Source of the DNA: Candidatus Rokubacteria bacterium 13_1_40CM_69_27
GTDB taxonomy: Bacteria > Methylomirabilota > Methylomirabilia > Rokubacteriales > CSP1-6
Assembly (NCBI GenBank): GCA_001917535.1
Contig: MNEF01000087.1
Location: forward strand, 1,401-65,400
Length of the DNA stretch: 64,000 nucleotides
Reading direction: 5' to 3'
The translations under genes were made by a program, and so were the position numbers. The stretch's first letter is position 1; each line of letters begins with the position of its first letter. Positions 42,705 through 56,724 of the stretch are shown here, piece by piece. A model generated the notes under the pieces. The model was given only the letters and a program-made list of their open reading frames with translations. It was not told the origin of the DNA and did no database searches.

Positions 42705-42923
42705 GCCGGGACCTCTAGCGGACCTTGGGCAGGACCTCCCGCGCGTAGAACCGAGGGCGGTAACGACCAGGATCGCGCCGACGAGGTTGCGGGTTATGGC
42801 GCACCCCTGGATGATGAGATCCGGACAGTACGGCTAGCAAGACGCCTGCCACCGGGGGGTGTGGAAACTTTTTCCCACCTACTTTGGTCTTAGAGCCGAA
42901 TACCCTTTCGCGGAGCACTGTTA

Positions 42924-43319
42924 TTGTCTATACTTGCCTGCCCAATGAGGACCGAGCTTCAGACCAGCGATCACAGGGTCAGCGGGCTCGTGGACGTGCT
43001 GGACCGCGTCCTCGACAAGGGGCTCGCCATCGCCGGCGACATCACGATCTCGCTGGCTGAAGTCGAGCTGCTCACCATCCGCATCCGCCTCATCATCTGC
43101 TCGATCGACAAGGCCCAGGAGATCGGCCTCGACTGGTGGAAGCACGATCGGCACCTGTCGGGCCGGCAGGACGCCGTCGAGACGCACGATCTTCAGAGGC
43201 AGCTGCGCGTGCTCGAGCGCAAGGTCGCCGCCCTCAGCACCGGGCGTGTCGCCGCGCCGGCCCGTCGCCCCGGGCGGAGAACCAAACCAGGGAACGAGGA
43301 GTCCTCGCAGGGAGGATGA
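42924..43319 (+). CDS. gvpJ: gas vesicle protein GvpJ/GvpM-like (GvpA family)
   Basis: [37 protein letters not shown] matches the GvpA/J/M hydrophobic core. Confidence 0.75.
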   Translation: MSILACPMRTELQTSDHRVSGLVDVLDRVLDKGLAIAGDITISLAEVELLTIRIRLIICSIDKAQEIGLDWWKHDRHLSGRQDAVETHDLQRQLRVLERKVAALSTGRVAAPARRPGRRTKPGNEESSQGG

Positions 43320-43322
43320 CCG

Positions 43323-43664
43323 ATGCCCGTTGAACGAACGTCCAGCAACACAAGCCTCATCGACGTTCTTGACCGCGTCCTCGACAAGGGCATCGTGATC
43401 GACGCCTGGGTTCGCGTGTCGCTCGTCGGCATCGACCTGATCACCGTCGAGGCACGCATCGTCGTCGCGTCGATCGAGACCTACCTGAAGTACTCGGAAG
43501 CGGTGGCCCAGAGCACGCCGGCTTTACGGTCCAACGCAGTCGAGACCCGCTCGCAGGAAGCTCTGGCGGCGGAGAATCGGTCGCTGCGGTCCAAGCTCGC
43601 AGCGGCGGCCGACGGCACGGGCGTGCCCGTGGTGAGAAGGCGGCGCCGCTCGGTCGGCGTCTAG
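43323..43664 (+). CDS. gvpA: gas vesicle structural protein GvpA
   Basis: [51 protein letters not shown] is near-identical to the canonical GvpA core. Confidence 0.9.
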
Positions 43665-43667
43665 GCC

Positions 43668-45827
43668 GTGGGCCGCGCCCTCCCGCTCCGCGCCCGGTCC
43701 CGAATATCCGGGAGCGGCCGGGCCGAAGCCCGGCTCGCGCTCGCCGAGTTCCTGCTCGGTTGCGACGACGTCGCGGAGTGCGCGCAGTGGGCGCTGGACT
43801 GGCTGGGCGCTCAGACCGACGCCCGGCAGGTCGTGTGCCTGCTGACCGATAAGGAGCGGACGCAGCTGGTCGCGATCGCCGGATACGGCCTGCCCGCTTC
43901 CCGCCTCCCCAAGCTCGCGATCGAGCTCGACCAGCGCGAACATCCGCTGGTGGCCGCCCTCGCCCGCGGCGAGCCGGTCGAGCTCACGCTGAACGGCTCC
44001 AGCGGACGCACCCCTGTGATGCGGCTCTTCGGCCGCGGCACGTTCCTGGCGATCCCGCTCATGGACGGCCGCAAGTCCGAGGACGCCCACGGTCTGCTGC
44101 TCGTCAACCCGAGGGCGCCCGACGTCGTTCGCGAAGGCGCCTGGCTCGCCGACAACCTGGGACCCAAGCTCGCGCGCCTCGGCGCCACCCAAGGGCTGGA
44201 GACGGCCCGGGCGGGCCTGGAGCGGGAACGGATCCTGCTCGAGAGCATCATCAACGCCGTCCACGACCCCGTGTTGTTGACCGATCACGAGGGGCGCATG
44301 ATCCTGGCCAACGCGCGCGCCGAGGCGCTCTTTGCCTCCACCGAGCGCGAGAGCGAAGGCCGGCGCCGGGCCATCGCGCTGAACAACATGCTCTTCTCGG
44401 CCGCCCTGGCCGGCCGCGCCATCGACCGGGCCGAGCCGACGCGCCGGGAGCTGCTGCTGGTGGATCCGATGGACGGCTCCGACCTGTTCTTCGAGCTGCT
44501 GAGCACGGTCGTCACCGATGCGTCGGAGGAGTCCCAGGTGGTCTCGGTCCTCAGGAACGTCAGCGATCTCCGCACCGCCATCGAGGCGCAGGAGGAGAAC
44601 TACCACAAGCTGCGCTTAGCCGAGGCTGAGGTCCGGGCCGAGCGCGACCGGCTCGAGCTGGTCATCGACGCCGTGGCCGACCCGATCCTCGTCACCGACC
44701 CCGCGGGAGCCATCGTCATGACGAACGCCCCGGCCGAGCAGCTCTTCACGGTACGGCCCGACACGCCCGGCGAGGTCGCCGTGAGGGTCCAATCGAACGA
44801 CGCGCACTTCTCGTCGTTCGTCTCGAACCTGCTCTTCGCCGGCGACACCCTGCGCCACTCGGGGTCCATCGAGCTCACCGATCCGGAGACCGGCGAGGGC
44901 CTCCCGGTGGAGGCGTTGGGGGGCAAGGTGCAGTCGGCCCACGGCGAGCTCGTCGGTGTGGTCACGATCCTGCACGACCAGCGGGAGGCGCTCGAGAAGC
45001 AGCAGCTCTACGAGCAGCTCAAGCGCGCCTCCCAGGAGCTGGAGGAGAAGGTCCGCCAGGCCACTGCCGAGCTGGTCCGACAGAACGAGCTGCTGCGGCG
45101 CCAGGCGATCCAGCTCGAGCACGCCTCGGCGCTCAAGTCCAGGTTCCTGGCCAACATGTCCCACGAGTTCCGCACGCCGCTCAACGCGATCCTGGGCTAC
45201 ACGAGCATGCTCCTGCAGGGCGTCCTCGGGGAGCTGACGTCCCAGCAGCGGCGGAGCCTCTCGCGAGTGGACTCCAGCGGGCGGCACCTGCTGGCCCTCA
45301 TCAGCGACATCCTCGACATCTCCCGCATCGAGGCGGGCAAGATGCCGGTCCATGTCAGCGATTTCCCGCTGCCCGAGCTGCTGGCCGAGGTGATGGCGGA
45401 GGTGGAGCCGATCGTCAGCCGCACCAGTCTCTGCGTCACCCAGGAGCTGGCCCCCAACCTGCCGATGATCGAAAGTGACCGCCCGAAGGTCAAACAGATC
45501 GTGCTGAACCTCCTGGCCAACGCGCTGAAGTTCACGCCGGAGGGCTGGGTCAAGGTCTCGGCGAGATTCGACGACGCCGGCGACCGGATCCTCATCGCCG
45601 TCGCCGACTCCGGCATCGGCATCGCCGACGATGACCAGGCGAAGATCTTCGAGGACTTCAGCCAGGCCGACAGCTCCTCCTCGCGCGCCTACAGCGGCGC
45701 CGGGCTGGGGCTCTCCATCTCGCGGCGGCTGGCCTCGATGCTCGGCGGTCAGATCACGCTCGAGAGCAAGGTCGGCCAGGGCTCCGCGTTCACCCTGATG
45801 CTTCCCAGGTCGCGCACGAGCCCATGA
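43668..45827 (+). CDS. GAF-PAS sensor histidine kinase
   Basis: N-terminal GAF-like region, PAS-like repeats, HisKA (NMSHEFRTPLNAILGY) and HATPase_c (GIGIADDDQAKIFEDF...GAGLGLSI). Confidence 0.85.
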   Translation: MGRALPLRARSRISGSGRAEARLALAEFLLGCDDVAECAQWALDWLGAQTDARQVVCLLTDKERTQLVAIAGYGLPASRLPKLAIELDQREHPLVAALARGEPVELTLNGSSGRTPVMRLFGRGTFLAIPLMDGRKSEDAHGLLLVNPRAPDVVREGAWLADNLGPKLARLGATQGLETARAGLERERILLESIINAVHDPVLLTDHEGRMILANARAEALFASTERESEGRRRAIALNNMLFSAALAGRAIDRAEPTRRELLLVDPMDGSDLFFELLSTVVTDASEESQVVSVLRNVSDLRTAIEAQEENYHKLRLAEAEVRAERDRLELVIDAVADPILVTDPAGAIVMTNAPAEQLFTVRPDTPGEVAVRVQSNDAHFSSFVSNLLFAGDTLRHSGSIELTDPETGEGLPVEALGGKVQSAHGELVGVVTILHDQREALEKQQLYEQLKRASQELEEKVRQATAELVRQNELLRRQAIQLEHASALKSRFLANMSHEFRTPLNAILGYTSMLLQGVLGELTSQQRRSLSRVDSSGRHLLALISDILDISRIEAGKMPVHVSDFPLPELLAEVMAEVEPIVSRTSLCVTQELAPNLPMIESDRPKVKQIVLNLLANALKFTPEGWVKVSARFDDAGDRILIAVADSGIGIADDDQAKIFEDFSQADSSSSRAYSGAGLGLSISRRLASMLGGQITLESKVGQGSAFTLMLPRSRTSP

Positions 45828-46228
45828 AGAAGGCGCCCCTGATTCTCCTGGTCGACGACTTCGAAGACAACCGGGAGATGTACGCCATGTTCCTGACGCA
45901 CTCCGGCTTCAAGGTCGCGGAAGCGGCCAATGGGCAGGAGGCGATCGAGCAGGCGTTCGAGCTGCTGCCGGACCTCATCGTGATGGACCTCTCGCTGCCG
46001 GGGCTCGACGGCTGGGAGGCCACGCGCCGCCTCAAGGGCGACGCGCGTACGCGTCACATTCCCGTGCTGGCGCTGACGAGCCACGCCCTTGAAGGCTTCT
46101 CGGAGGGGGCCAAGGAGGCCGGCTGTGACGGCTTCATCACCAAGCCCTGCCTGCCCGATGAGCTCATGGCGGAGATCCGCGGCATGCTCACCGTCGCCAA
46201 GAAATCCAAGTCGAAGAGCTCCACCTAG
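45824..46228 (+). CDS. response regulator receiver protein (CheY-like)
   Basis: ILLVDDFEDNREMY...DLIVMDLSLPGLDGWEA...ALTSHAL...GCDGFITKP; overlaps the HK stop. Confidence 0.85.
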   Translation: MKKAPLILLVDDFEDNREMYAMFLTHSGFKVAEAANGQEAIEQAFELLPDLIVMDLSLPGLDGWEATRRLKGDARTRHIPVLALTSHALEGFSEGAKEAGCDGFITKPCLPDELMAEIRGMLTVAKKSKSKSST

Positions 46229-46580
46229 CGCTTGAGGAGGTTATGCGGCTGGCCTGTTCGGAGAAAGACACGCGCGCCGATGAACGGCCCCGGCGCTGGG
46301 CTTCGGCAGCGGCCAAGCGAGGGCATGGCGGCGTCACCGCCTCGCATCGCGACTCACCTTCCGGGGTCCTTTCCGTCGGTGCTCGGACTGCGAGGCATTG
46401 ATTCCACACACCTTTTGAATGGTATGACCGTGTGGTCGGAATGGCATGACCATTCACGGTGGATATCTGTTGACAGTACGGGCGCGTGGCATGCTAGAGT
46501 GCCCGTCCTCGCGCGGCCTCGGCCACTGGAGTTGGACTAGAAGACGCAGGCGGAAACGAGAACGTGCTCGAGGAGGCCAT

Positions 46581-47480
46581 GTGAAAGGCAGGACGAAGCG
46601 GCAGGCCGGGCCCAAACCCGCGCGGGGACGGTCGGCCCCGGGCAAGACCGGCGACCTCGCGGCCAGCCGCGCCAAGCGGTCCAGCCGCCGGCCGCGGGCC
46701 GAGGCCAAGGGGGGGGCCGACAATCTCGGCAAGTACGTCTACTGCGTGGTCAGCGCCACCGAGCCGCTACGCTTCGGCGCCATCGGCATCGGGGCCAAGC
46801 CCGCCGAGGTCCAGACGGTCAACTACAAAGGCATCGCCGCGATCGTCTCCGACACCCCCCTCGAGGTGTACGACCCCACCCGCGAGAACGTCCTGGCCCA
46901 CGAGCGCGTGAACGAAACGGTCATGCGCACCCACACCGTCATCCCCATGTCGTTCGGCGCGGTGTTCAAGACGCGCGAGGACATCATCGAGCTGCTGCGG
47001 GGCGCCTACAACGCCTTTCACGACGTCCTCTCGAAGATGGAGGACAAGCTCGAGTTCGGGCTGAAGGTCCTCTGGGATCGCGACGTCATGATCCGCGAGA
47101 TCGAGCGGGAGGACGAGGACATCCGGCGGCTCAAGAACGAGATCGCGTCGCAGAAGGGCTCGACCTATTTCGCCCGCGTCCAGTACGGTCGCATGGCGGA
47201 CGCGGCGCTGCAGAACCTGGCCGACCGCTACGTCGCCGACATCTTCGCCCAGCTGCGCGACGTCTGCGTCGCCTCCCGGGCCAACAAGCCCATCGGCGAC
47301 AAGATGATCATGAACGCCGCCTTCCTGGTCGCCCGGAACCAGGAGGCCGCGTTCGACGCGCGCGTGAAGAAGATCGGCGCCCAGTACCACAAGCTCACGT
47401 TCAAGTACACCGGGCCCTGGCCGCCCTACAACTTCGTCAACATCCGGCTGAAGCTCGAGCGGGCCAAGGACGCCCAGTGA
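46581..47480 (+). CDS. gvpL: gas vesicle protein GvpL/GvpF family (paralog 1) with basic N-terminal extension
   Basis: GAGGAGG RBS plus GTG; GKYVYCVVSATEP...GPWPPYNFV motifs of GvpF/L. Confidence 0.8.
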   Translation: MKGRTKRQAGPKPARGRSAPGKTGDLAASRAKRSSRRPRAEAKGGADNLGKYVYCVVSATEPLRFGAIGIGAKPAEVQTVNYKGIAAIVSDTPLEVYDPTRENVLAHERVNETVMRTHTVIPMSFGAVFKTREDIIELLRGAYNAFHDVLSKMEDKLEFGLKVLWDRDVMIREIEREDEDIRRLKNEIASQKGSTYFARVQYGRMADAALQNLADRYVADIFAQLRDVCVASRANKPIGDKMIMNAAFLVARNQEAAFDARVKKIGAQYHKLTFKYTGPWPPYNFVNIRLKLERAKDAQ

Positions 47481-47761
47481 TCATCCTCGACTCCCTCCTG
47501 TTCGGCGGGCTCAAGTTCGTCCTGTCGAAGATCGCCCAGCTCGCCGATGCCGAGCTCAACGATGAGAGCGCGCTGCGCGAGGAGCTGCTGGCCGCCCAGA
47601 TGCGCCTCGAGCTGGGGGAGATGAGCGAGGAGGAGTTCGCGCAGTTCGAGCGCGAGATCCTGGCCCGGCTGCGCGAGATCCGCGCCCGTACGACGGGCGC
47701 CGGGCCCGGGGGGATGAAGGTCACGGGCGTGGAGGCCCGCGCCTGGGACGACGAGGAGTAG
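47477..47761 (+). CDS. gvpG: gas vesicle protein GvpG
   Basis: LFGGLKFVLSKIAQLADAELNDESALREELL...EEFAQFEREIL typical of GvpG; ATGA overlap with gvpL. Confidence 0.75.
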   Translation: MIILDSLLFGGLKFVLSKIAQLADAELNDESALREELLAAQMRLELGEMSEEEFAQFEREILARLREIRARTTGAGPGGMKVTGVEARAWDDEE

Positions 47762-47763
47762 CT

Positions 47764-49818
47764 CCGCACTACCGCTTCTTCGGTGGCAAGGGCGGCGTGG
47801 GCAAGACCACCTGCGCCGCCAGCGCCGCCGTCGCCGCCGCCGAGAGGGGCCACCGGGTGCTCCTGGTGTCGACCGACCCCGCGCATTCCCTGGGCGACGC
47901 CCTCCAGCGCCCGCTCTCCGCGCGCCCGCGCCGGATCCCCACCCGGCGGGGAGCGCTGGAGGCGGTGGAGCTCGACGCCGACCGCGCGCTCGACCGCTGG
48001 ATCGCCGCCCGCCGGCGCCTGCTCCGGACGATCCTCGAGCGGGGAACCTACCTCGACGAGGACGACATCGACCGCTTCCTGCGGCTGTCCTTCCCGGGCG
48101 TCGACGAGCTGATCGGCCTGGTGGAGCTGACGCGCCTGGCCCGCGCACGTCCCTGGGACGACGTGGTGGTGGACACGGCGCCCACCGGTCACACGCTGCG
48201 CCTGCTCGCGATGCCCGCCACGCTGGAGCGGATCGCCACCGTCCTCGACGACATGCAGGCCAAGCATCGCTTTCTCGCCCAGAGCCTCAGCGGCGTCCAC
48301 CGGCCGGACGCGACCGACGCCCTGATCGACGAGATCGCCACCGAGGGCCGGTCACTGCGGGCGCAGCTGAGCGACCCGGACCGCTGCACGTTTGTCTGGG
48401 TGCTCCTGCCCGAGCCGCTGGCGCTCGAGGAGGCCAAGGACGGGATCGGCGCGCTCGACCGGGCGGGCATCTCCGTGAGCGAGATCGTCGTCAACCGCGT
48501 GGTCCCAGCGCCCGACCAGCCCTGCGAGCTGTGCGACGGCCGGCGCCGGGCCGAGCAGGCGGCGATCGCGGCCGCGCGCGCGGCCTTTCCAGGGCGGCCA
48601 CTGACGCTACTTCCCGATCTCGCCGACGAGCCCCGCGGCGTCGCGGCGCTTCGTGGCGTCGGCCGCCATCTCGCCTCCTCGCCAGCCCGCGTCGAGACGC
48701 CTCGGGCGCGGGCTTCGCTCGCGCCATCGACTCCTATGGGAAGGTTCGGAGGGGGCCGTGAGGCCCGTTCCGACTATGGATCTCGGAAGGGGGGCGAAGC
48801 CCCCCTCCGAATCAAAACCGCCGCGGAAGCGGCATGGCTCGAGCGCATCGCGCCGCCGGGCGTGCGCCTCCTCCTCTTCGCCGGCAAGGGCGGCGTGGGC
48901 AAGACCACCTGCGCGGCGGCGGTGGCGCTCGCGCTGGCCGCGCGCGCGCCCCAGGCCGACATCTTGCTGCTCTCCACCGACCCCGCTCACTCTCTGGCCG
49001 ACGTGCTCGCGATCCCGGTCGGGGACGATCCGCATCCCGTCCCGGGCGCCCCGCGCCTCCGCGCGCGTGAGCTGGACGCCGACCGCGTGTTCGCCGCCAA
49101 GCGCGCCCGCTACTGCGAAGCGGTCGACGATCTGTTCGCGGCGCTGAGGGGCGGTTCGCGCTTCGACGTCGCCTTCGACCGCACCGTCGTCCAGGACCTC
49201 ATCGACCTGGCGCCGCCGGGCCTCGACGAGCTGTTCGGGATCCTCACGGTGATCGAGGCGCTGTTCCCCGAGCCCGGCGCCGGCCGGCGCTACGACACGG
49301 TCGTGCTCGATACCGCGCCCACGGGCCACGCGCTACGGCTCCTCGAGCTGCCGGATGCCGCGCTCGAATGGGTGCACGCGCTGCTGGAGATCCTCCTCAA
49401 ATACCGGAAGGTCATCGGCCTGGGCGAGCTGGGGATGGATCTCGTGACCGTCTCGCGCGACTTGAGGCGGCTGGGGGCGCTGCTCCGCGACCGGGTTGAA
49501 ACGGGACTGGTCGCCGTCACGCGCCCGGCGGAGCTGCCGCGTCTGGAGACCCTCCGTCTGCTCCGGCGGATCGGGCGGCTCCGGATTCCGCTCGCGGCCG
49601 TGCTGGTGAACGCCGTCACGCCGCCCGGCTGTGCCCGCTGCCGGACCATCAGTCGCCGCGAGGCGCGCCAGCTCACCGCGCTCCGACGGGAGTGCCGGTC
49701 GCCCGCCCGCGGTCGCTGCGGTATCATCGTGGCTCCGGCCGTGGCGCCGCCGGCGCGCGGCGCCGCGGCGCTCGCCCGCTGGCGCGCGCGCTGGGAGCTG
49801 GATGGTGAAACGGACTGA
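47764..49818 (+). CDS. tandem ArsA/GET3-type P-loop ATPase (two ArsA halves in one ORF)
   Basis: Two GKGGVGKTTCAA P-loops, two STDPAHSL motifs, DTAPTGHTLRLL signature (twice); the start is upstream of the ORF-track Met because the P-loop begins at about 47776; the linker contains a REP-like insertion. Confidence 0.75.
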   Translation, partial: PHYRFFGGKGGVGKTTCAASAAVAAAERGHRVLLVSTDPAHSLGDALQRPLSARPRRIPTRRGALEAVELDADRALDRWIAARRRLLRTILERGTYLDEDDIDRFLRLSFPGVDELIGLVELTRLARARPWDDVVVDTAPTGHTLRLLAMPATLERIATVLDDMQAKHRFLAQSLSGVHRPDATDALIDEIATEGRSLRAQLSDPDRCTFVWVLLPEPLALEEAKDGIGALDRAGISVSEIVVNRVVPAPDQPCELCDGRRRAEQAAIAAARAAFPGRPLTLLPDLADEPRGVAALRGVGRHLASSPARVETPRARASLAPSTPMGRFGGGREARSDYGSRKGGEAPLRIKTAAEAAWLERIAPPGVRLLLFAGKGGVGKTTCAAAVALALAARAPQADILLLSTDPAHSLADVLAIPVGDDPHPVPGAPRLRARELDADRVFAAKRARYCEAVDDLFAALRGGSRFDVAFDRTVVQDLIDLAPPGLDELFGILTVIEALFPEPGAGRRYDTVVLDTAPTGHALRLLELPDAALEWVHALLEILLKYRKVIGLGELGMDLVTVSRDLRRLGALLRDRVETGLVAVTRPAELPRLETLRLLRRIGRLRIPLAAVLVNAVTPPGCARCRTISRREARQLTALRRECRSPARGRCGIIVAPAVAPPARGAAALARWRARWELDGETD
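48745..48810. repeat. REP-like element (two hairpin modules) lying in-frame within the ArsA-like ATPase linker
   Basis: TTCGGAGGGGGCCGTGAGGCCCGTTCCGA ... TCGGAAGGGGGGCGAAGCCCCCCTCCGA translated as ...GRFGGGREARSDYGSRKGGEAPLRIK... between the two ArsA halves without a stop. Confidence 0.55.
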
Positions 49819-50596
49819 CACGACCGCCACCTACCTCTATTGCCTGGTGCACGGCAAGAAGTCTCCGTCTCTGGCCAGGCCGCCCCGGGGGCTTCCGGGC
49901 GCCGGCCCGGTGCGGCTGCTGGACGCGGGGGACGGCTTCTGGCTCGCCGTCGCCGACGCGCCCCTGGCGCGCTACGGCAGCGAGCCCATCGAGCGCGGCC
50001 TGCGCGACCTCAAGTGGGTGTCGGCGTGCGCGATGGCCCACGAGAGCGTCGTCGAGCACTTCGGCCGCGCGGGCACCGTCATCCCGATGAAGCTCTTCAC
50101 CCTGTTCTCGAGCGACGAGCGGGCCGCCACCCACGTGCGACGCGCGCGCAAGCGGCTCCTGCGCCTGATCACCCGCGTCATGGACCGCCAGGAGTGGGGC
50201 GTGCGGCTGAGCCTGGACGAGGCCCGCGGGCTCCGCGGTCTCGCCGCGCGCTCCCCGGGCGACGGCCGGCGCCTCGGCGCCGGCACGGGCTTCCTTGTCC
50301 GTAAGAAACAGGAACGCGACTCCGTCCGCCGGCTGGCCGAGCGGGCGCGCGCCGAAGCCGATCGCATCTTCGGCGCATTGGCCCGGCGCGCCGACGACGC
50401 GCGGCGCCAGACGCCGCCCCCGGGCGACGCCGGCATCCGCGTGCTCCTCGACGCCGCCTTCCTCGTGCGCGCCCGGCGCTCCCCTCAGTTCCGGGCGACC
50501 GCCCACGGCCTTGCCCGCCGCCTGGCCGGCGAGGGCTACGCCCTCACGCTGAGTGGTCCCTGGCCGCCCTACACCTTCGTGGCGGGGCCCGCGTGA
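49802..50596 (+). CDS. gvpF: gas vesicle protein GvpF/GvpL family (paralog 2)
   Basis: TYLYCLVHG...VIPMKLFTLF...GPWPPYTFV; ATG overlaps the ArsA-like stop. Confidence 0.75.
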   Translation: MVKRTDTTATYLYCLVHGKKSPSLARPPRGLPGAGPVRLLDAGDGFWLAVADAPLARYGSEPIERGLRDLKWVSACAMAHESVVEHFGRAGTVIPMKLFTLFSSDERAATHVRRARKRLLRLITRVMDRQEWGVRLSLDEARGLRGLAARSPGDGRRLGAGTGFLVRKKQERDSVRRLAERARAEADRIFGALARRADDARRQTPPPGDAGIRVLLDAAFLVRARRSPQFRATAHGLARRLAGEGYALTLSGPWPPYTFVAGPA

Positions 50597-50820
50597 AGCC
50601 CAAGGCGCGGCGCCGGCTCCGGAACGTCCTCGACGAGGCGGACGCGTCGCTGCTCGATCTCGTGGACCACGTGCTCAACAAGGGCGTCGTCATCGAGGGC
50701 GAGGTGCTGCTCGGCCTCGCCAACGTCGATCTCGTCTATCTCCGGTTGGCCGCCGTCCTCTGCGCCGCCGACCGCCTGGAGCGGACGAACGAAAGCCGGC
50801 GGCGGCGGGCGCGGTCGTGA
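50593..50820 (+). CDS. gvpS: small gas vesicle protein of the GvpA/J/S family
   Basis: LLDLVDHVLNKGVVIEGEVLLGLANVDLVYLRLAAVL matches the GvpA-family core; GTG start overlapping the upstream stop. Confidence 0.65.
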   Translation: MKPKARRRLRNVLDEADASLLDLVDHVLNKGVVIEGEVLLGLANVDLVYLRLAAVLCAADRLERTNESRRRRARS

Positions 50821-51503
50821 GCCGGCTCTACCTCTACGCGCTGCTGGGCGGGCCGCCCTCGGGGCCGCTGGGAGCCGGGCTCGCGGGCGAGCCCCTTCGC
50901 CTCGTACGTTGCGGCGATCTCCTGGCTGTCGCGGGCGACGTGCCGAAGGCGCCGTCCATCGACGCCGCGTCGCTGCGCGCCCACGACGCCACCGTGCGCC
51001 GGCTGGCCGAGATGGTCGAGGCCGTCCTCCCCATCCGCTTCTGCACGCTCGTCGACGATGAATCCGCGCTGGCCGGACTGCTGGAGCCGCAGCGCGCCGG
51101 GCTCGGTGAAGCCCTGGCCCTGGTCGCCGGGCGCGAGCAAATGACGCTCCGGCTCTACGGCGAGGGGCTGCACGACGACGCTCCCCTCCCCGATGCGGAG
51201 CCCTCCCTGCCCGGTCCGGGCGCGCGCTACCTCGCGGCCCGGCGGCGGGAGCGGCGGCGCGCGCACGGCAGCCGGGAGATGGCCGCGCTGCGGCGGGGGC
51301 TCGGGGCGCTGATCGTCGACGAGCGCGTCGAGCGCCACGACATGCCGCCGCTCCTGGCGAGCCTCTACCACCTGATCGAGCGCGGCGCCAGCGCCCGCTA
51401 TCTGAGCGCGCTGGAGACCATCGCCGGCGAGCTCGGCGCTGTCCGCGCCCGCGCCACCGGGCCCTGGCCGCCCTACGCCTTCGCGCCCGGAGCCATTCCG
51501 TGA
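50817..51503 (+). CDS. gas vesicle protein GvpF/GvpL family (paralog 3, short)
   Basis: LYLYALLG...GPWPPYAFAPG C-terminal signature; GTG start overlapping the gvpS stop. Confidence 0.65.
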   Translation: MSRLYLYALLGGPPSGPLGAGLAGEPLRLVRCGDLLAVAGDVPKAPSIDAASLRAHDATVRRLAEMVEAVLPIRFCTLVDDESALAGLLEPQRAGLGEALALVAGREQMTLRLYGEGLHDDAPLPDAEPSLPGPGARYLAARRRERRRAHGSREMAALRRGLGALIVDERVERHDMPPLLASLYHLIERGASARYLSALETIAGELGAVRARATGPWPPYAFAPGAIP

Positions 51504-51859
51504 AGCCGCGGCGGACGAGGCGCGCCGGCGTGGCGCTTCGCGTGCGGGAGCTGGAGGCGCTGCGGACCGAGCTGGAGCGGCGCGTGGCGGCGGAGACGCC
51601 ACGCTGGAACGCCGACCCCGAGGACGTCCAGCGCTCGGTCGCCAAGCTCGTCCTCACCCTCGTCGACTTCCTGCGCAAGCTCTTCGAGAAGCAGGCCATC
51701 CGGCGGATGGAAGCCGGCACGCTGACGCCCAAGGAGACGGAGGCGCTCGGCCTGGCGCTGATGCGGCTGGAGGAGACGATCCGCGACCTGGCCCGCCGCT
51801 TCGACCTGGCGCCGGAGGACCTGAAGCTCGACCTGGGCCCGCTCGGCCGGCTGTCCTGA
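51500..51859 (+). CDS. gvpK: gas vesicle protein GvpK
   Basis: VAKLVLTLVDFLRKLFEKQAIRRMEAGTLTPKETEALGLALMRLEE...LDLGPLG matches GvpK. Confidence 0.75.
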   Translation: MKPRRTRRAGVALRVRELEALRTELERRVAAETPRWNADPEDVQRSVAKLVLTLVDFLRKLFEKQAIRRMEAGTLTPKETEALGLALMRLEETIRDLARRFDLAPEDLKLDLGPLGRLS

Positions 51860-51880: not shown

Positions 51881-52024
51881 TCAGACGCGCGTCGGCCGCC
51901 CCTGCCAGTACGGCTCGCGCAGCACGCGCTTGACGAGCTTGCCCGCGGCGTCGCGCGGAAAGTCCTCGTGGAACGACACCTCGCGCGGCACCTTGTCGTC
52001 GGCGTGAGCGGCGATGAAATCCAT
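51881..52024 (-). pseudogene. C-terminal remnant of an AMP-dependent synthetase/ligase
   Basis: MDFIAAHADDKVPREVSFHEDFPRDAAGKLVKRVLRE is the conserved C-terminal tail of acyl-CoA synthetases; nothing upstream of it is coding. Confidence 0.4.
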
Positions 52025-52090: not shown

Positions 52091-52645
52091 ATGCGAACGA
52101 CACGCGCGGTGGTTGGGGGTGCCCTGATCGGAGCCGTCCTGGCCCTGGTCCTGGCGGGCCCGGCACGGGCGCTCGAGGTGGGGCAGAAGGCGCCCGACTT
52201 CACGCTGCCCGCCCCCGGGGGGAAGCAGGTGAAGCTGGCCGATCTGCTCGGCAAGGGACCTGTCGTCATCTACACGCTGATTCAGGCCTTCACCCGCACC
52301 TGAACGGAGGAAATCAAGGGCTTCGAGGCGGCCCTGCCGCAGTTCGAGGCCCTCAACGCCCAGGTCGTGGGCGTCAGCGCGGATCACGTAGCCACGCTCG
52401 AGGCGTTCGTGAAGCAGAACGACATCAAGCAGCTCATGCTTTCCGATTTCCGTCGCCAGATGCTGCCCGCCTGGGACGCCCTGGTCACGGACGAGAAGAG
52501 CCCGATTTACCGCTACGCCAAGCGCGCCTACTTCATCCTCGACCGGAACGGGATGGTGAAGTACGTCAAGGTGATGAACAACCCGCTGGATCTCCTGAAG
52601 CCCGACGAGGTCATCAAGGCCGTCAAGGAGTCGGGCGCATCATGA
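52091..52645 (+). CDS. periplasmic peroxiredoxin (AhpC/TSA family) with in-frame TGA at the peroxidatic Cys position: candidate selenoprotein
   Basis: Signal peptide; single reading frame 52091-52645 interrupted only by TGA at 52301-52303; ...VVIYTLIQAFTRT-[TGA]-TEEIKGFEAALPQFEALNAQVVGVSAD aligns with the Prx motif ...FYPLDFTFVCPTEI... with TGA exactly at the Cys. Confidence 0.7.
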
Positions 52646-53175
52646 AGCGCGCGCTCGTCCTCGCGGTCGCCCTCGCGCTCGGCGCGGGGGCGGCCGCGGG
52701 GGGCGTTCCCGACTTCGCGAGCTTCGGGCTCCAGGCGTACGCCCCGCCCAAGCCGGCGCCGCCCTTCACGCTCGCCGACCTGGAGGGCAAGCCGCGGTCG
52801 CTGGCCGACCTCAAGGGCCAGGTCGTCCTCCTCTTCTTCTGGGCGACCTGGTGACCGGACTGCCGGGAGGAGTTGCCTTCCGTCAACAAGCTCTACGACG
52901 AGTTCAAAGGCAAGGGGCTCGAGGTCCTGCTCATCACCTTCCGTGAGGCTCCTGAGCGGGTGAGGCGGACCGTCCGGGAGCGCGGCTACACGGCGCCCGT
53001 CCTGGTCGATGAGAGCGGCGAGGTGACGGGGGTCAAGTACGGCGTGTTCGGTCCTCCGACGGTGTACATCGTCGACCGCGAGGGTCGTCTGCTCGCGCGC
53101 GGCGTGGGGCCGCGCGACTGGTCCACGCCGGCGGCCCGCGCGCTGCTCGAGGACCTCGTCCAGCCACGCCGGTAG
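52642..53175 (+). CDS. periplasmic TlpA/ResA-like thioredoxin-fold thiol:disulfide oxidoreductase with in-frame TGA replacing the first Cys of CxxC: candidate selenoprotein
   Basis: ATGA overlap with the prx stop; signal peptide; LKGQVVLLFFWATW-[TGA]-PDCREELPSVNKLYDEFKGKGLEVL aligns with ResA [23 protein letters not shown]...; the frame continues without another stop to 53175. Confidence 0.7.
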
Positions 53176-53176
53176 C

Positions 53177-53541
53177 CTAGAGCGCCAGCGCGTAGCCGTC
53201 GCGGCGGGGGTCGGCGCCGCCGTGCAGGGCGCCCGACTCCGGGTCGCGGATGATCCCTGGCCCCCGCCGACGATCCACGACCAGTCGTCGATCACGTTGA
53301 CCTGGTGGCCGCGGCGCCCCAGCTCGGCGCGCGCCTCGGGCGCGATCCGCGCCTCCACGTCGACCAGCCGGTCGCGGTAGACGCGCACCCGCGGCGCCTC
53401 GATCGCCTCCTGGATGTTCAGGCCGAACTCGAGGACGTTCAGGATCATCTGCGGCGTCGTCTGCAGTATTCCGTACGAGCCCGGCGTGCCGATCGACATG
53501 AAGAACTCGCCGTCGCGGAAGATCTGCGTGGGCGACATCAT
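53177..53541 (-). pseudogene. gamma-glutamyltranspeptidase C-terminal fragment with frameshift
   Basis: MMSPTQIFRDGEFFMSIGTPGSYGILQTTPQMILNVLEFGLNIQEAIEAPR (GGT small-subunit signature), then the alternate frame ends GIIRDPESGALHGGADPRRDGYALAL (GGT C-terminus); the N-terminal about 400 aa are absent. Confidence 0.5.
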
Positions 53542-53673
53542 GGTCCCGGCCTTCCGGCCGGGGGCCAGCCGATTCGGGCTCTCGGGATGGCATCGACGCC
53601 AGCGGGTGCGCGGAGGTCACCACCCCGCGCCGTCCCATCACGACCGGCCGGTAGGCGTCTCGATGCGGTGGTC

Positions 53674-55488: not shown

Positions 55489-55704
55489 CTACAGGCGCGG
55501 CCGGATGTCGCCGGCAAAGGCCGCCAGCACCCGCTCGACCTCCTCCAGGCTCTTCGGCAGCAGCGCGGGCGGCAGCCCGTAGACGATGTGGTCGCCCACC
55601 CACACGGAGTCGTAGCCCAGCGCTTCCGCGCGGCGGGCCAGCGCGAGCGTGCCCTCGCCGGAGGCGAGCGGGCCGAAGTGCGGGAGCTGGACGCCGAACT
55701 TCAC
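55489..55704 (-). pseudogene. N-terminal fragment of an LLM-class (luciferase-like) flavin/F420-dependent oxidoreductase
   Basis: MKFGVQLPHFGPLASGEGTLALARRAEALGYDSVWVGDHIVY is a canonical LLM N-terminus but the ORF stops after 71 aa. Confidence 0.45.
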
Positions 55705-55711
55705 GCGACGG

Positions 55712-56593
55712 TCAGGCGGGCGGAAGGAACAGCGCCCACGTCGCGCGCAGCGTCCACATCGAGAGCAGGAAGCCGCCGGCCAGCGCCAGGCTCACCCCGC
55801 TGACGACGCTCACGCGGTGCTGGAGGGCCAGGGCGTCGGTGCCGGCTCGCCCGGCGCGCCCCGCCGCGAGCGTGCCCGCCACCGCCAGCGGCACCATGAG
55901 CCCGAGGCCGTACGCCATCAGCGTGACGGCGCCGAGCCAGGCGCTCTGCTGCGCCGCCACCCAGCCGATGACGAGCGCGTAGGCCGACAGCGGGCTGAAG
56001 ATCGCCATCGTCGCGCCGAACCCGAGCGCGATCGCCAGCGCCCGCCGCGTCAGACTGCCGGTGGGAGCTCCTTCCGCCGGGGCCGTGGTCAGGCGGGGGA
56101 GCAGCGGGCGCGCCAGCCCCAGCTCGCCGAGCGCGATCGCCAGCGCCAGCAGGCCCAGCCCCGAGAGGGTAACGGAGGCGATCGCTTCGCGCGCCCAGGG
56201 CGTCGTCACCTTGGCGGCCATGGCGGAGCCCGCCCAGGCCATCGCCGCGCCGAACACGCCCAGCACCGCCAGCAGGGCGCCCGTGAACAGACCGAGCACC
56301 GCCATCCACCGCCGTCTCGTCTTCGCCTCCTGAACCAGGGGCGCGATCGTGAAGATCATCGGCGTCCATCAGGGGACGCAGATGCGCGGCACCCCCATGA
56401 CGAAGGCGAGCAGCACGGCGGTCGACGCGCCCACCAGCGGCGCGCCCGGATCGGTGAAGAGCGCGATGAACCCTTTGTACATGCCGCTGAACATGGGCCA
56501 GTTCCAGGCGTAGCCCAGTAGCCCGCCCGTCAGCGTGGCGACCACGAACAACGTCAGACGAGAACGCATGGGAGCCTCCCTGAAGGGCAGCAT
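55712..56593 (-). CDS. ccdA: CcdA/DsbD-family transmembrane thiol-disulfide electron transporter with in-frame TGA in TM1 (C-V-P-[TGA]): candidate selenoprotein
   Basis: Two ORF-track pieces (55712-56359 and 56369-56593) are in the same frame, separated only by TGA at 56369-56371; ...AVLLAFVMGVPRICVP-[TGA]-WTPMIFTIAPLV... resembles the CcdA TM1 motif LSPCVLPL. Confidence 0.6.
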
Positions 56594-56724
56594 ACTCCAC
56601 TCACGCCGAGGAGCGAACGGCCCGACCTAGCGGCCTGTCCGCGAATAGCGCGATCTCACTCTCGGCCACTGCTCGCCGTTTCGAGCGCCGGCGTAGCCGG
56701 CGCGATCCTTTCCTGGGGGAGGCT

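What the first reader, a model, noticed from the sequence alone, without database searches (positions are those of the whole stretch)
52642..53175. TlpA/ResA-like thioredoxin-fold protein with UxxC instead of CxxC
WATW-[TGA]-PDC aligns with the ResA/TlpA WGTW-C-EPC motif. The gene is translationally coupled to the Prx gene (ATGA overlap) and carries a signal peptide. A Sec in the nucleophilic position of the CxxC motif is the classical arrangement in Trx-fold selenoproteins.
Basis: partly seen in the sequence, partly recalled or inferred. Interest (0 to 1): 0.75.

Follow-up and report, generated by a model that had tools for sequence, protein, structure and literature searches.

The report
Exported TlpA-like selenoprotein with UxxC site
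This gene encodes an exported thioredoxin-like reductase whose key active-site cysteine is replaced by selenocysteine, a known kind of selenoprotein that gene callers cut in two, and here it is paired with a selenocysteine peroxidase it probably recharges.

Summary
ORF 52642-53175 (+) encodes a 177-aa Redoxin/AhpC-TSA protein with one in-frame TGA (52852-52854) in FFWATW-U-PDC. The TGA aligns with the first Cys of WATWCPDC in full-length Cys homologues and in ResA/TlpA structures. The same codon is TGA in 79 of 80 related species-representative genomes, mostly labelled Rokubacteria/Methylomirabilota. A 7-bp, AGUUG-loop hairpin (52864-52882) meets the published bacterial SECIS criteria. Its six core pairs are never broken in 80 sequences, two pairs covary, and rare Leu/Pro codons are held in place. 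Five Cys-form relatives with DNA in hand lack the intact stem (four single stem-breaking changes, one divergent). Codon periodicity is equal on both sides of the TGA, and TGA also ends 47 of 80 orthologues, so this is local recoding, not a pseudogene or a reassigned codon.

In 58 of 75 loci with enough upstream sequence the gene follows an exported peroxiredoxin with its own TGA and no cysteine. It is therefore most likely that peroxidase's dedicated reductant, resembling Caulobacter TlpA-PprX.

UxxC Trx-fold selenoproteins are long known, so this is a new, widely mis-annotated member of a known kind. No Sec machinery lies in the window, so that test stays open.

The parts
52642..53175 (+). 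TlpA/ResA-like thioredoxin-fold selenoprotein gene (177 codons including Sec71; stop TAG 53173-53175)
   Evidence: Translation. Pfam and NCBIfam matches. PDB homologues 3kcm at 7.7e-31, ResA 4nmu and TlpA 1jfu. 79 TGA-containing orthologues.
52642..52704 (+). Putative Sec-type signal peptide or N-terminal anchor (about residues 1-21, MKRALVLAVALALGAGAAAGG); no lipobox Cys
   Evidence: Inspection of the translation. Hydrophobic N-termini are also present in the full-length homologues. No signal-peptide predictor was available.
52852..52854 (+). In-frame UGA read as selenocysteine (residue 71), the N-terminal nucleophilic position of the U-P-D-C redox motif (52852-52863)
   Evidence: Aligns with the first Cys of WATWCPDC and with the CxxC of ResA-family structures. 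TGA in 79 of 80 genomes. Codon periodicity is equal on both sides.
52861..52885 (+). bSECIS-like hairpin: core stem CGGGAGG/CCUUCCG (52864-52870 with 52876-52882), apical loop AGUUG (52871-52875), two extra lower pairs
   Evidence: dG -10.6 kcal/mol, z -2.1. The 6 core pairs are never broken in 80 sequences and 2 pairs covary. Third-position diversity is 0.082 here versus 0.48 elsewhere, and rare TTG/TTA and CCT codons are fixed. The stem is disrupted in Cys forms. Criteria taken from PMC13188914.
53056..53058 (+). Codon for Pro139, the conserved cis-Pro-loop proline of the thioredoxin fold (GPPT)
   Evidence: Invariant in alignments A1 and A3. Aligns with the V-P of 3kcm in the G-x-P-x-T/F-x-I-D loop.
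52625..52630 (+). Shine-Dalgarno AAGGAG, 11 nt before the ATG and inside the end of the Prx gene
   Evidence: Sequence read.
52642..52645 (+). ATGA start/stop overlap with the upstream Prx gene (translational coupling)
   Evidence: Sequence read; translations.
52091..52645 (+). Partner gene: exported BCP/PrxQ-like peroxiredoxin with in-frame UGA at 52301-52303 (FTRT-U-TEE), no Cys in the whole protein, long hairpin at 52317-52353
   Evidence: A Prx lies directly upstream in 58 of 75 loci, with the TGA read in all but one, L029. There is no Cys in 58 of 60 mature Prx orthologues.
55712..56626 (-). Candidate membrane electron donor (speculative link): DsbD_TM/CcdA-like protein with in-frame UGA at 56369-56371 in the motif C-V-P-U-W-T-P
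   Evidence: Pfam PF02683 at 2e-7, above the cut-off. The U aligns with the TM1 Cys of a distant Cys homologue. The TGA is conserved in L001, L009 and L027. Nearly all of the roughly 100 database homologues are about 210-aa fragments that start after the TGA.

Best explanation
The ORF encodes an exported, or membrane-anchored and outward-facing, 177-aa thioredoxin-fold thiol:disulfide reductase of the TlpA/ResA-like superfamily. The first, nucleophilic residue of its CxxC centre is selenocysteine (W-U-P-D-C).

UGA-71 is most likely recoded by SelB carrying Sec-tRNA(Sec). SelB would be recruited by a 7-bp stem with a 5-nt AGUUG loop that starts 9 nt after the UGA and lies inside the codons for R-E-E-L-P-S-V.

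The gene is translationally coupled to an upstream exported peroxiredoxin whose only redox residue is also Sec. The proposed cycle is as follows.
1. Prx-Se(-) reduces a peroxide and becomes Prx-SeOH.
2. The selenolate of the TlpA-like protein attacks it, giving a mixed Se-Se intermediate.
3. Cys74 resolves this intermediate, releasing reduced Prx and leaving an intramolecular Se-S bond in the TlpA-like protein.
4. A DsbD/CcdA-type membrane transporter re-reduces that bond with electrons from the cytoplasm.

Shown here: the ORF, the Cys/Sec alignment, conservation of the TGA, the conserved and covarying hairpin, the conserved two-gene cassette, and the cysteine content of both proteins. Inferred: actual Sec insertion, the Prx-TlpA electron transfer, the Se-Se intermediate, and the identity of the membrane donor. 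The confidence given (0.85) is for the core claim, a genuine Sec-encoding TlpA-like reductase gene with a functional bSECIS. The Prx-reductase role alone I put at about 0.6.
For: Family membership
- Pfam AhpC-TSA and Redoxin are above their gathering thresholds. The best NCBIfam hits are ResA and TlpA.
- PDB hits 3kcm (7.7e-31), ResA and TlpA align WATWCPPC with WATW-U-PDC.
- The U sits in the first-Cys column of full-length Cys homologues.

Conservation of the TGA
- The codon is TGA in 79 of 80 species-level genomes at 55-73% protein identity.
- Among the top 120 database hits, about 100 are roughly 100-aa fragments that start just after the CxxC. These are orthologues cut by gene callers.

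Translation through the TGA
- Substitution periodicity is the same on both sides: position 3 is 0.44, positions 1 and 2 are 0.17-0.23.
- No orthologue has a stop in the 79 codons after the TGA in frame 0, against 79 and 70 of 80 in the other two frames.
- TGA also terminates 47 of 80 orthologues (all).

Hairpin
- It has a 5-nt loop with G at position 2 followed by U, a 7-bp stem, 16 nt between the UGA and the loop, and dG -10.6 kcal/mol.
- The 6 core pairs are never broken in 80 sequences. Pair 16:28 occurs as GU, GC, AU and UA, and pair 17:27 as AU, GC and CG. No shuffle of 500 reached the observed values on any of the five measures.
- Third-position diversity is 0.082 in the hairpin codons against 0.48 elsewhere. 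Leu+7 is TTG or TTA in 79 of 80 (4% elsewhere) and Pro+8 is CCT in 76 of 80 (4% elsewhere).
- Four Cys-form relatives each carry a different stem-breaking change, two of them synonymous, and a fifth, L078, lacks the hairpin altogether.

Partner
- A Prx lies directly upstream in 58 of 75 loci, with an in-frame TGA read in all but one, L029.
- The mature Prx has no Cys in 58 of 60 orthologues, and the TlpA-like protein has exactly one Cys in 81 of 81.
- Experimental precedent exists: the ScsB to TlpA to PprX envelope peroxide pathway of Caulobacter (PMC3322552).
- Methylomirabilota are reported to be Sec-rich (PMC13188914; PMC13582414).
Against: - No selA, selB, selD or tRNA-Sec was found in the window. 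ARAGORN on loci L001-L060 found no tRNA-Sec, and a crude SelB/SelD motif scan of all loci held then (L001-L085) found nothing. The Sec machinery of the source genome is therefore unverified.
- No Rfam family matched the hairpin.
- Folding a 64-nt or 121-nt stretch of the single sequence is not better than shuffles in this GC-rich context (z = 0.12 and 1.03). The signal comes from comparison across genomes.
- Scores are below the NCBIfam cut-offs for ResA, TlpA and DsbE, so no specific orthology supports a function.
- The Prx-reductase role rests on gene order only. 17 of 75 loci lack the upstream Prx. Ten of them form a paralogous subfamily, and the two examined, L013 and L036, sit next to a CoxL-like dehydrogenase.
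- The candidate DsbD_TM-like donor is nearby in only 4 of 81 loci and is on the opposite strand.
- There is no protein-level evidence of selenium.
Confidence: 0.85

Rival explanations
1. The TGA is a true stop. The locus is a pseudogene, or it holds two separate small genes, a 70-aa N-terminal peptide and a 100-aa C-terminal protein starting at TTG 52873, as automatic annotation calls it.
For: Gene callers and NCBI annotate exactly this. Examples are the 100-aa products P0015 and P0016, the 102-aa 'TlpA family protein disulfide reductase' P0081, and the 70 + 100 aa gene calls in L086. TGA is a normal terminator in this lineage.
Against: - The TGA is conserved at one codon in 79 of 80 diverged genomes.
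- Coding periodicity and purifying selection are equal on both sides and in the same frame.
- The 100-aa fragment would lack beta1, the CxxC and the start of alpha1, so it could not form the thioredoxin fold seen in the aligned structures.
- An RNA hairpin is conserved at synonymous sites only in the TGA forms.
Confidence: 0.02
2. The UGA is recoded, but not to selenocysteine. One option is Cys inserted through SelB and a tRNA(Sec)-like tRNA(Cys). Another is near-cognate read-through giving Trp or Cys, so that the mature protein has a plain CxxC or WxxC site.
For: Sequence alone cannot tell which residue is inserted. SelB-dependent Cys insertion at UGA by non-canonical tRNA(Cys) is cited in the literature (Vargas-Rodriguez 2018, reference list of PMC13582414). 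The Sec machinery was not found in the sequence held here.
Against: - The hairpin has the loop G-U and the spacing typical of SelB-bound SECIS elements.
- Three different redox genes in the same window carry a UGA at a catalytic Cys position.
- The phylum is reported to be selenoprotein-rich.
- Repeated Sec/Cys exchanges scattered over the tree, with the hairpin decaying in Cys forms, are the pattern described for genuine Sec/Cys pairs.
Confidence: 0.04
3. It is a genuine UxxC selenoprotein, but its physiological job is the classical one of ResA, CcmG or TlpA. That job is reducing apocytochrome c or the Cu-site cysteines of Sco and CoxB, or general envelope disulfide reduction. Recycling the neighbouring peroxiredoxin would not be its role.
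For: The best-scoring named families are ResA, TlpA, StoA and DsbE. The closest solved structures are ResA-family and TlpA. A paralogous Sec subfamily occurs without a Prx, so the fold is used with other partners in the same genomes.
Against: - Scores are far below all equivalog cut-offs: ResA 95.5 against 170, TlpA 75.8 against 230, DsbE 65.7 against 123.
- No ccm, res, sco or cox genes adjoin it in the window.
- The Prx-TlpA pair is translationally coupled and conserved in 58 of 75 loci.
- The Prx has no resolving Cys and so needs an external partner.
- TlpA reducing a periplasmic Prx is experimentally established.
Confidence: 0.2

Closest known systems
Bacterial Trx-fold UxxC selenoprotein families: 'Prx-like thiol:disulfide oxidoreductase' (PF00578), 'Thiol:disulfide interchange protein' (PF13098) and 'Redoxin family protein' (PF08534), as catalogued in PMC1794560 and PMC13188914
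   Same: It has the same domain families (AhpC-TSA and Redoxin). Sec is in the N-terminal position of the CxxC. A bSECIS lies directly downstream inside the coding region, and Cys-containing homologues exist.
   Different: The exemplar sequences could not be fetched, so identity with any one listed family is untested. This clade comes from genomes mostly labelled Rokubacteria/Methylomirabilota, carries an export signal, and forms a conserved cassette with a Sec-peroxiredoxin. Public records annotate its members as truncated proteins.
TlpA (Bradyrhizobium, PDB 1jfu and 4txo), ResA (Bacillus, 1st9 and 4nmu), CcmG/DsbE, and the Geobacter-type 'thioredoxin family protein' 3kcm
   Same: It has an extracytoplasmic thioredoxin fold, the FW-x-T-W-C-x-x-C active-site context, the cis-Pro loop, and a similar length. 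E-values run from 7.7e-31 to 1e-18.
   Different: Sec replaces the nucleophilic Cys. Scores are below the equivalog cut-offs for ResA, TlpA and DsbE. There is no cytochrome-maturation or Cu-centre gene context.
ScsB to TlpA to PprX envelope peroxide-reduction pathway of Caulobacter crescentus (PMC3322552)
   Same: An exported BCP/PrxQ-like peroxiredoxin is paired with an exported TlpA-like reductant. A DsbD-family membrane protein is needed as the electron source.
   Different: Both soluble components carry Sec here. The Prx has no resolving Cys, whereas PprX has two cysteines. The two genes are fused into a translationally coupled operon. No ScsB was found, and the only nearby DsbD-family gene is a CxxU variant 2.5 kb away on the other strand.
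NCBIfam selenoprotein models NF041054 (ResA-like WAxxUGC), NF053656 (redoxin TUGYCR) and NF040769 (SelL-related redox protein)
   Same: These are ResA- or redoxin-like folds with Sec in the active-site motif, and they give weak homology to this protein (1.9e-16, 5.7e-4 and 5.9e-7).
   Different: The motif here is W-A-T-W-U-P-D-C, not WAxxUGC or TUGYCR. Scores of 60, 20 and 29 bits are far below the cut-offs of 300, 100 and 120, so it is not a member.

Membership tests
Thioredoxin-fold TlpA-like / Redoxin superfamily (Pfam PF08534, PF00578) | Profile HMM score above the Pfam gathering threshold | tested here: met
   AhpC-TSA scores 96.3 bits against a cut-off of 26, and Redoxin 81.4 bits against 26.6.
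Thioredoxin-fold TlpA-like / Redoxin superfamily | CxxC redox motif in the W-C-x-x-C context at the start of helix alpha1, aligned with that of solved family members | tested here: met
   WATW-U-PDC aligns with WATWCPPC of 3kcm and WGTWCKPC of ResA 4nmu, and with WATWCPDC of Cys homologues. The first Cys is replaced by the UGA codon.
Thioredoxin-fold TlpA-like / Redoxin superfamily | Conserved cis-Pro loop opposite the active site | tested here: met
   Pro139 in GPPTVYIVD is invariant in A1 and A3 and aligns with the G-V-P-E-T-F-V-I-D loop of 3kcm.
Thioredoxin-fold TlpA-like / Redoxin superfamily | Extracytoplasmic location (signal peptide or N-terminal anchor) | tested here: inconclusive
   The N-terminus has a typical n/h/c layout, seen by eye. 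No signal-peptide predictor was available.
ResA (NF002854), TlpA (NF047696) and DsbE/CcmG (TIGR00385) orthologous groups | Score at or above the curated NCBIfam cut-off | tested here: not met
   The scores are 95.5 against 170, 75.8 against 230, and 65.7 against 123. It is a superfamily relative, not an orthologue.
Bacterial selenoprotein gene | In-frame UGA aligned with a conserved, redox-active Cys in homologues (Cys/Sec pair) | tested here: met
Bacterial selenoprotein gene | UGA-containing orthologues in other organisms, with coding conservation on both sides | tested here: met
   79 of 80 genomes carry the TGA. Codon periodicity is the same on both sides, and no orthologue has a frame-0 stop in the 79 codons after it.
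Bacterial selenoprotein gene | bSECIS downstream of the UGA: 3-9 nt loop, 4-16 bp stem, G in the first two loop positions, 16-37 nt between UGA and loop, MFE of -7.5 kcal/mol or lower (PMC13188914) | tested here: met
   The loop is AGUUG (5 nt, G at position 2 followed by U), the stem is 7 bp, the spacing is 16 nt, and dG is -10.6. The hairpin is conserved with covariation and decays in Cys forms.
Bacterial selenoprotein gene | Sec machinery (selA, selB, selC, selD) in the same genome | not testable with these tools
   None is present in the 64-kb window. ARAGORN found no tRNA-Sec in L001-L060, and a crude SelB/SelD motif scan of all loci held then (L001-L085) found nothing. Only literature support at phylum level is available.
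Bacterial selenoprotein gene | Selenium in the protein (75Se labelling or mass spectrometry) | not testable with these tools
   This needs an experiment.
NCBIfam selenoprotein families WAxxUGC_long, redoxin_TUGYCR and SelL_rel_redox | Score at or above the cut-off, and the name-giving motif | tested here: not met
   The scores are 60.3 against 300, 19.8 against 100, and 29.3 against 120. The motif here is WATWUPDC.
DsbD/ScsB to TlpA to periplasmic Prx peroxide-reduction pathway (PMC3322552) | Exported BCP/PrxQ-type peroxiredoxin genetically or functionally linked to an exported TlpA-like protein | tested here: met
   The Prx has a signal-like N-terminus and its best NCBIfam hit is the Bcp-type thiol peroxidase. 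The genes overlap in ATGA, and the pair is conserved in 58 of 75 loci.
DsbD/ScsB to TlpA to periplasmic Prx peroxide-reduction pathway | DsbD-family membrane electron donor | tested here: inconclusive
   A DsbD_TM-like gene lies 2.5 kb away on the opposite strand, but it is near the cassette in only 4 of 81 loci. No ScsB was seen.
DsbD/ScsB to TlpA to periplasmic Prx peroxide-reduction pathway | Demonstrated electron transfer from TlpA to Prx and peroxidase activity | not testable with these tools
   This needs biochemistry.

The most novel reading that the evidence does not exclude
The cassette may be part of an all-selenium envelope peroxide-detoxification relay. In this reading a CcdA/DsbD-like membrane protein has moved its redox pair into one helix as C-V-P-U. 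This would be a selenoprotein family I could not find in NCBIfam or in the 2026 catalogue. It would pass electrons to the U-P-D-C TlpA-like protein. That protein would in turn regenerate a cysteine-free 1-Sec peroxiredoxin through an obligatory protein-protein diselenide intermediate. Sec would then sit at every step of an extracytoplasmic electron-transfer chain.
Probability: 0.2. Interest if true: 0.65.

Novelty: new member of a known kind. Interest (0 to 1): 0.4.

Why it matters
**Annotation.** This clade is common in soil and groundwater metagenomes. Among the top 120 database clusters, about 100 are truncated fragments, and 79 of the 80 species-level genomes fetched carry the TGA form. 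Current pipelines split it, and its Prx partner, into meaningless halves. As a result the selenoproteome and the antioxidant capacity of Rokubacteria/Methylomirabilota are under-counted.

**Biology.** The cassette pairs a cysteine-free Sec-peroxiredoxin with a dedicated UxxC reductant outside the cytoplasm. That makes it a compact, testable system for asking what selenium buys over sulfur in peroxide reduction, and whether Se-Se intermediates form between proteins.

**Evolution.** Sec forms have an intact hairpin. The Cys forms have a decaying one while still sitting next to a Sec-Prx. This gives a clean natural series for studying Sec/Cys exchange.

None of this changes what is known in principle about Trx-fold selenoproteins.

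Tried and rejected
- Rfam, at gathering and at permissive thresholds, found no SECIS-type family, only chance hits. Bacterial SECIS elements of this type are not modelled there.
- Single-sequence folding of 64-nt and 121-nt stretches was no better than shuffles. Only the isolated 25-nt hairpin (z = -2.1) and the comparative analysis are informative.
- I searched for Sec machinery with ARAGORN on the window and on 60 loci, with crude SelB and SelD motif scans, and with Pfam scans of 49 window ORFs. Nothing was found. This is uninformative for a 64-kb piece of a genome.
- I clustered neighbouring ORFs in the 80 loci to find further conserved partners. The result was swamped by spurious high-GC antisense ORFs. 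Only the Prx emerged as a conserved neighbour.
I did not model a homologue because the PDB sequence matches already fix the fold.
- The Haft & Tolstoy 2025 paper (PMC12013261) is not held, and literature searches on Rokubacteria selenoproteins gave almost nothing.
- Rejected reading: genome-wide reassignment of TGA. TGA terminates 47 of 80 orthologues, and a window scan found only three in-frame TGAs joining what reads as a single gene. The other three hits in that scan are a boundary between two gas-vesicle genes and two gene ends.
- Rejected reading: the TGA junction at 43317. It is simply the boundary between two tandem gas-vesicle protein genes.
Full report
**1. Observation**

The window is about 70% G+C. 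ORF 52642-53175 (+) translates to 177 codons with a single internal stop, TGA at 52852-52854. The context is ...GQVVLLFFWATW-*-PDCREELPSVNKLY....

The start ATG (52642-52644) overlaps the TGA stop of the upstream gene (52643-52645), giving an ATGA overlap. An AAGGAG Shine-Dalgarno lies at 52625-52630. The N-terminus, MKRALVLAVALALGAGAAAGG, looks like a Sec-type signal peptide or anchor. I judged this by eye only.

GC3 is 0.99 before the TGA and 0.90 after it, in the same frame.

**2. What the protein is**

With U replaced by C, Pfam gives AhpC-TSA (1.6e-27) and Redoxin (7.6e-23), both above the gathering thresholds. The best NCBIfam matches are:
- ResA, 3.3e-27
- TlpA, 4e-21
- StoA
- DsbE

All of these are far below the curated equivalog cut-offs. 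The protein is thus a member of the TlpA-like thioredoxin-fold superfamily and not an orthologue of any named enzyme.

Against solved structures the best hits are 3kcm (7.7e-31), ResA 4nmu (2.3e-26) and TlpA 1jfu (8.9e-19). WATW-U-PDC aligns with WATWCPPC and WGTWCKPC, and the cis-Pro loop is conserved.

**3. Is the TGA a Sec codon?**

*Homologues in the protein database.* A search of 5.8 billion proteins returned two kinds of hit. About 14 were full-length relatives (174-187 aa, 45-66% identity). About 100 of the top 120 were roughly 100-aa proteins, 67-100% identical to the query, that start right after the CxxC.

In the alignment the full-length relatives all have Cys in the U column (WATWCPDC). 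The short ones begin at (M/L)PSVNKLY. The short ones are therefore orthologues that gene callers cut at the TGA. In the near-identical contig L086 the callers produce 70 + 100 aa for this gene and split the two other candidate selenoprotein genes in the same way.

*Related genomes.* A scan of one genome per species gave 80 loci. Most are labelled Rokubacteria, Rokuibacteriota, Methylomirabilota or NC10. In 79 of them the codon is TGA and in one (L078) it is TGC.

*Evidence for translation through the TGA*:
- Across these 80 sequences, nucleotide diversity is 0.19/0.17/0.44 at codon positions 1/2/3 upstream of the TGA and 0.23/0.18/0.44 downstream.
- No sequence has a frame-0 stop in the 79 codons after the TGA, whereas 79 and 70 of 80 have one in the other two frames.
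- TGA is also the real terminator of 47 of 80 orthologues, so the codon is not reassigned.

A window-wide scan returned six in-frame TGAs flanked by coding-like sequence. Only three join what reads as a single gene: this one, the Prx one, and one in a DsbD_TM-like gene. The other three are a boundary between two gas-vesicle genes and two gene ends.

**4. The recoding signal**

Nine nucleotides after the UGA lies CGGGAGG-AGUUG-CCUUCCG (52864-52882), extended by two lower pairs to 52861-52885. Its dG is -10.6 kcal/mol and z is -2.1.

It meets every constraint of the published bacterial SECIS model (PMC13188914):

| Criterion | Model | This hairpin |
|---|---|---|
| Apical loop | 3-9 nt | 5 nt |
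| Upper stem | 4-16 bp | 7 bp |
| UGA-to-loop spacing | 16-37 nt | 16 nt |
| MFE | -7.5 kcal/mol or lower | -10.6 kcal/mol |

*Comparative support*:
- In the 80-sequence alignment the six core pairs are paired in every sequence.
- Pair 16:28 occurs as GU (43), GC (22), AU (14) and UA (1).
- Pair 17:27 occurs as AU (76), GC (3) and CG (1).
- No shuffle of 500 reached the observed values on any of the five measures.
- Sliding the 3' partner by 1-3 columns drops pairing from 96.8% to 42-76%.

*Constraint on the RNA, not only on the protein.* The stem is built from the codons for R-E-E-L-P-S-V, so protein conservation could mimic a structure. Three results argue against that.
- Third-position diversity is 0.082 in these seven codons against 0.48 in the rest of the gene.
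- The loop Leu uses TTG or TTA in 79 of 80 sequences, against 4% of other Leu codons. The 3'-arm Pro uses CCT in 76 of 80, against 4% of other Pro codons.
- Amino-acid changes are compensated. In L006, L024 and L072, E-to-R (GAG to AGG) goes with CCT to CCC. In L041, E-to-S goes with CCT to CCG and Ser to Thr.

*The Cys forms as a control.* DNA was fetched for four Cys-form relatives that encode the same or nearly the same peptide. Each carries a different change that breaks a stem pair never broken in the TGA forms:
- CCT to CCA (synonymous)
- CGG to CGA (synonymous)
- CGG to CTA
- CCT to GCT

L078 has lost the hairpin entirely. The RNA constraint therefore exists only when the codon is TGA.

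In a rough NJ tree without support values, the Cys forms fall at several separate places among the Sec forms. This suggests repeated Sec/Cys exchanges.

Rfam has no matching family. Folding longer single-sequence stretches is not significant.

**5. Context and likely mechanism**

*The upstream gene.* Gene 52091-52645 is an exported BCP/PrxQ-like peroxiredoxin with TGA at 52301-52303 in FTRT-U-TEE. A long hairpin begins 16 nt downstream (z = -3.6 for 52317-52353).

*The cassette is conserved.*
- A Prx homologue lies directly upstream on the same strand in 58 of 75 loci that have enough sequence. The Prx active-site TGA was read in all but one of them, L029.
- Two of the loci where the TlpA-like gene has switched to Cys, L081 and L082, still show the Prx TGA. 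In L083 and L084 the Prx is still called as two pieces.
- The mature Prx contains no cysteine in 58 of 60 orthologues. The two exceptions look like anomalous ORFs.
- The TlpA-like protein contains exactly one cysteine, Cys74, in 81 of 81 sequences.

*Inference.* The peroxidase has a single redox atom and no resolving residue, so it must be regenerated by an external partner. The translationally coupled UxxC protein is the obvious candidate.

The experimental precedent is Caulobacter. There ScsB passes electrons to TlpA, and TlpA reduces the periplasmic PrxQ-type peroxiredoxin PprX (PMC3322552). My proposed cycle is Prx-SeOH, then a Prx-Se-Se-TlpA intermediate, then TlpA(Se-S), then re-reduction by a DsbD-family membrane protein. 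This cycle is inference from those facts.

*A possible membrane donor.* A DsbD_TM-like gene lies at 55712-56626 (-) (PF02683, 2e-7). It has its own in-frame TGA in C-V-P-U-W-T-P. The link to the cassette is weak, because the gene lies within 5 kb of the cassette in only 4 of 81 loci and is on the other strand.

*Loci without a Prx.* Seventeen loci lack the Prx. Ten of them form a paralogous subfamily (U-P/T/S-T-C...LPP[V/I]Q[K/T]). In the two loci examined, L013 and L036, the gene follows a CoxL-like molybdenum dehydrogenase. Several MAGs carry both paralogues.

**6. Sec machinery**

No tRNA-Sec, SelA, SelB or SelD is encoded in the window. ARAGORN found no tRNA-Sec in loci L001-L060. A crude SelB/SelD motif scan of all loci held at that point, L001-L085, found nothing. 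For a 64-kb fragment this is uninformative, and the whole genome could not be reached with the tools.

Two lines of indirect support exist. Three independent candidate selenoprotein genes lie in this one window. Literature also reports Sec use in the phylum: one Methylomirabilota MAG is predicted to hold 63 selenoprotein genes (PMC13188914), and Sec-type [NiFeSe] hydrogenases occur in Methylomirabilota (PMC13582414).

**7. Comparison with what is known, and novelty**

Trx-fold selenoproteins with UxxC have been catalogued since 2004-2006 and are listed in the 2026 review. They include:
[quoted passage not shown] - 'Redoxin family protein'
- UGC-type TlpA proteins
- thioredoxin, glutaredoxin and DsbA-like proteins

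Sec-peroxiredoxins with TxxU are also listed there.

The present protein does not reach the thresholds of the NCBIfam selenoprotein models for ResA-like WAxxUGC, TUGYCR redoxins or SelL-related proteins. This explains why NCBI records show only the C-terminal stub (P0081).

I could not fetch the catalogue's exemplar sequences, so I cannot say whether this clade is one of the listed families. The safest label is a new, systematically mis-annotated member of a known kind.

What appears not to be described is the conserved, exported Sec-Prx/Sec-TlpA cassette with a cysteine-free peroxidase. My literature searches found nothing on it. The library is incomplete, and one key paper was not held.

**8. 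Verdict**

- The gene is a genuine selenoprotein gene with a functional bSECIS: confidence about 0.9.
- It serves as the reductant of the neighbouring Sec-peroxiredoxin: about 0.6.
- Interest is moderate (0.4). It is a solid, well-supported call with practical value for annotation and a neat system for Se-versus-S biochemistry, but a selenoprotein specialist would not be surprised.

Noticed in passing
window 52091-52645 (+): The upstream peroxiredoxin is itself a candidate selenoprotein (TGA 52301-52303, FTRT-U-TEE). It has no cysteine anywhere, so it would be a '1-Sec' Prx. The usual Pro of the PxxxTxxC motif is replaced by Ile or Leu. A strong hairpin lies at 52317-52353. The TGA is conserved in about 58 related loci.
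   Followed up: partly
window 55712-56626 (-), TGA at 56369-56371: This is a DsbD_TM/CcdA-like membrane protein with an in-frame TGA in C-V-P-U-W-T-P.
- The U aligns with the TM1 Cys of a distant Cys homologue (P0222).
- The second canonical TM Cys is Ser, so the redox pair seems to have moved to a CxxU in one helix.
- A hairpin with a GUU loop lies 33 nt after the UGA.
- Nearly all of the roughly 100 database homologues are about 210-aa fragments that start after the TGA.
- There is no NCBIfam hit, and I did not find it in the 2026 selenoprotein catalogue.
It may be an undescribed selenoprotein family.
   Followed up: partly
L013 6001-6519, L036 6001-6501 and similar loci (L022, L023, L030-L032, L035, L040, L051): A paralogous Sec-containing TlpA-like subfamily (U-P/T/S-T-C...LPP[V/I]Q[K/T]) has no upstream Prx. 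In L013 and L036 it follows a CoxL-like molybdopterin dehydrogenase large subunit. Several MAGs carry both paralogues.
   Followed up: partly
L081-L084 (Cys-form TlpA-like loci): Where the TlpA-like gene has Cys instead of Sec, the upstream Prx TGA was read directly in L081 and L082. In L083 and L084 the Prx is still called as two pieces. The former SECIS of the TlpA-like gene shows different single stem-breaking mutations in each locus. This looks like a natural series of Sec-to-Cys conversion.
   Followed up: yes
window 53177-53616 (-): Only the C-terminal part of a gamma-glutamyltranspeptidase is present (about 146 aa; PF01019 positions 382-494 of 512). There is an apparent frameshift near 53250. 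It is probably a gene remnant.
   Followed up: no
window 51881-52024 (-) and 55489-55704 (-): Two further short gene remnants flank the cassette. One is a 47-aa C-terminal piece resembling an acyl-CoA synthetase; that resemblance is my reading, with no tool result. The other is a 71-aa N-terminal piece of a luciferase-like (F420-type) oxidoreductase. Both are also called in the near-identical contig L086.
   Followed up: no
window 42894-51859 (+): A gas-vesicle gene cluster lies immediately upstream of the cassette. It holds tandem GvpA-like genes, three GvpL/GvpF genes, GvpK, an ArsA-like ATPase and a PAS histidine kinase. It is syntenic in L086.
   Followed up: no
L016, L032, L041, L052, L053, L066, L071, L075, L076, L079: Very similar Sec-Prx/Sec-TlpA cassettes, or in L032 the Prx-less paralogue, sit in MAGs labelled with other taxa. 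The labels are Tepidiformaceae, Binatia, Verrucomicrobiia, Deferrimicrobiaceae, Acidoferrum, Limnocylindria, Solibacteraceae, Dormiibacterota and even the archaeon Nitrosotalea. Binning contamination by Rokubacteria contigs seems more likely than wide horizontal spread.
   Followed up: no
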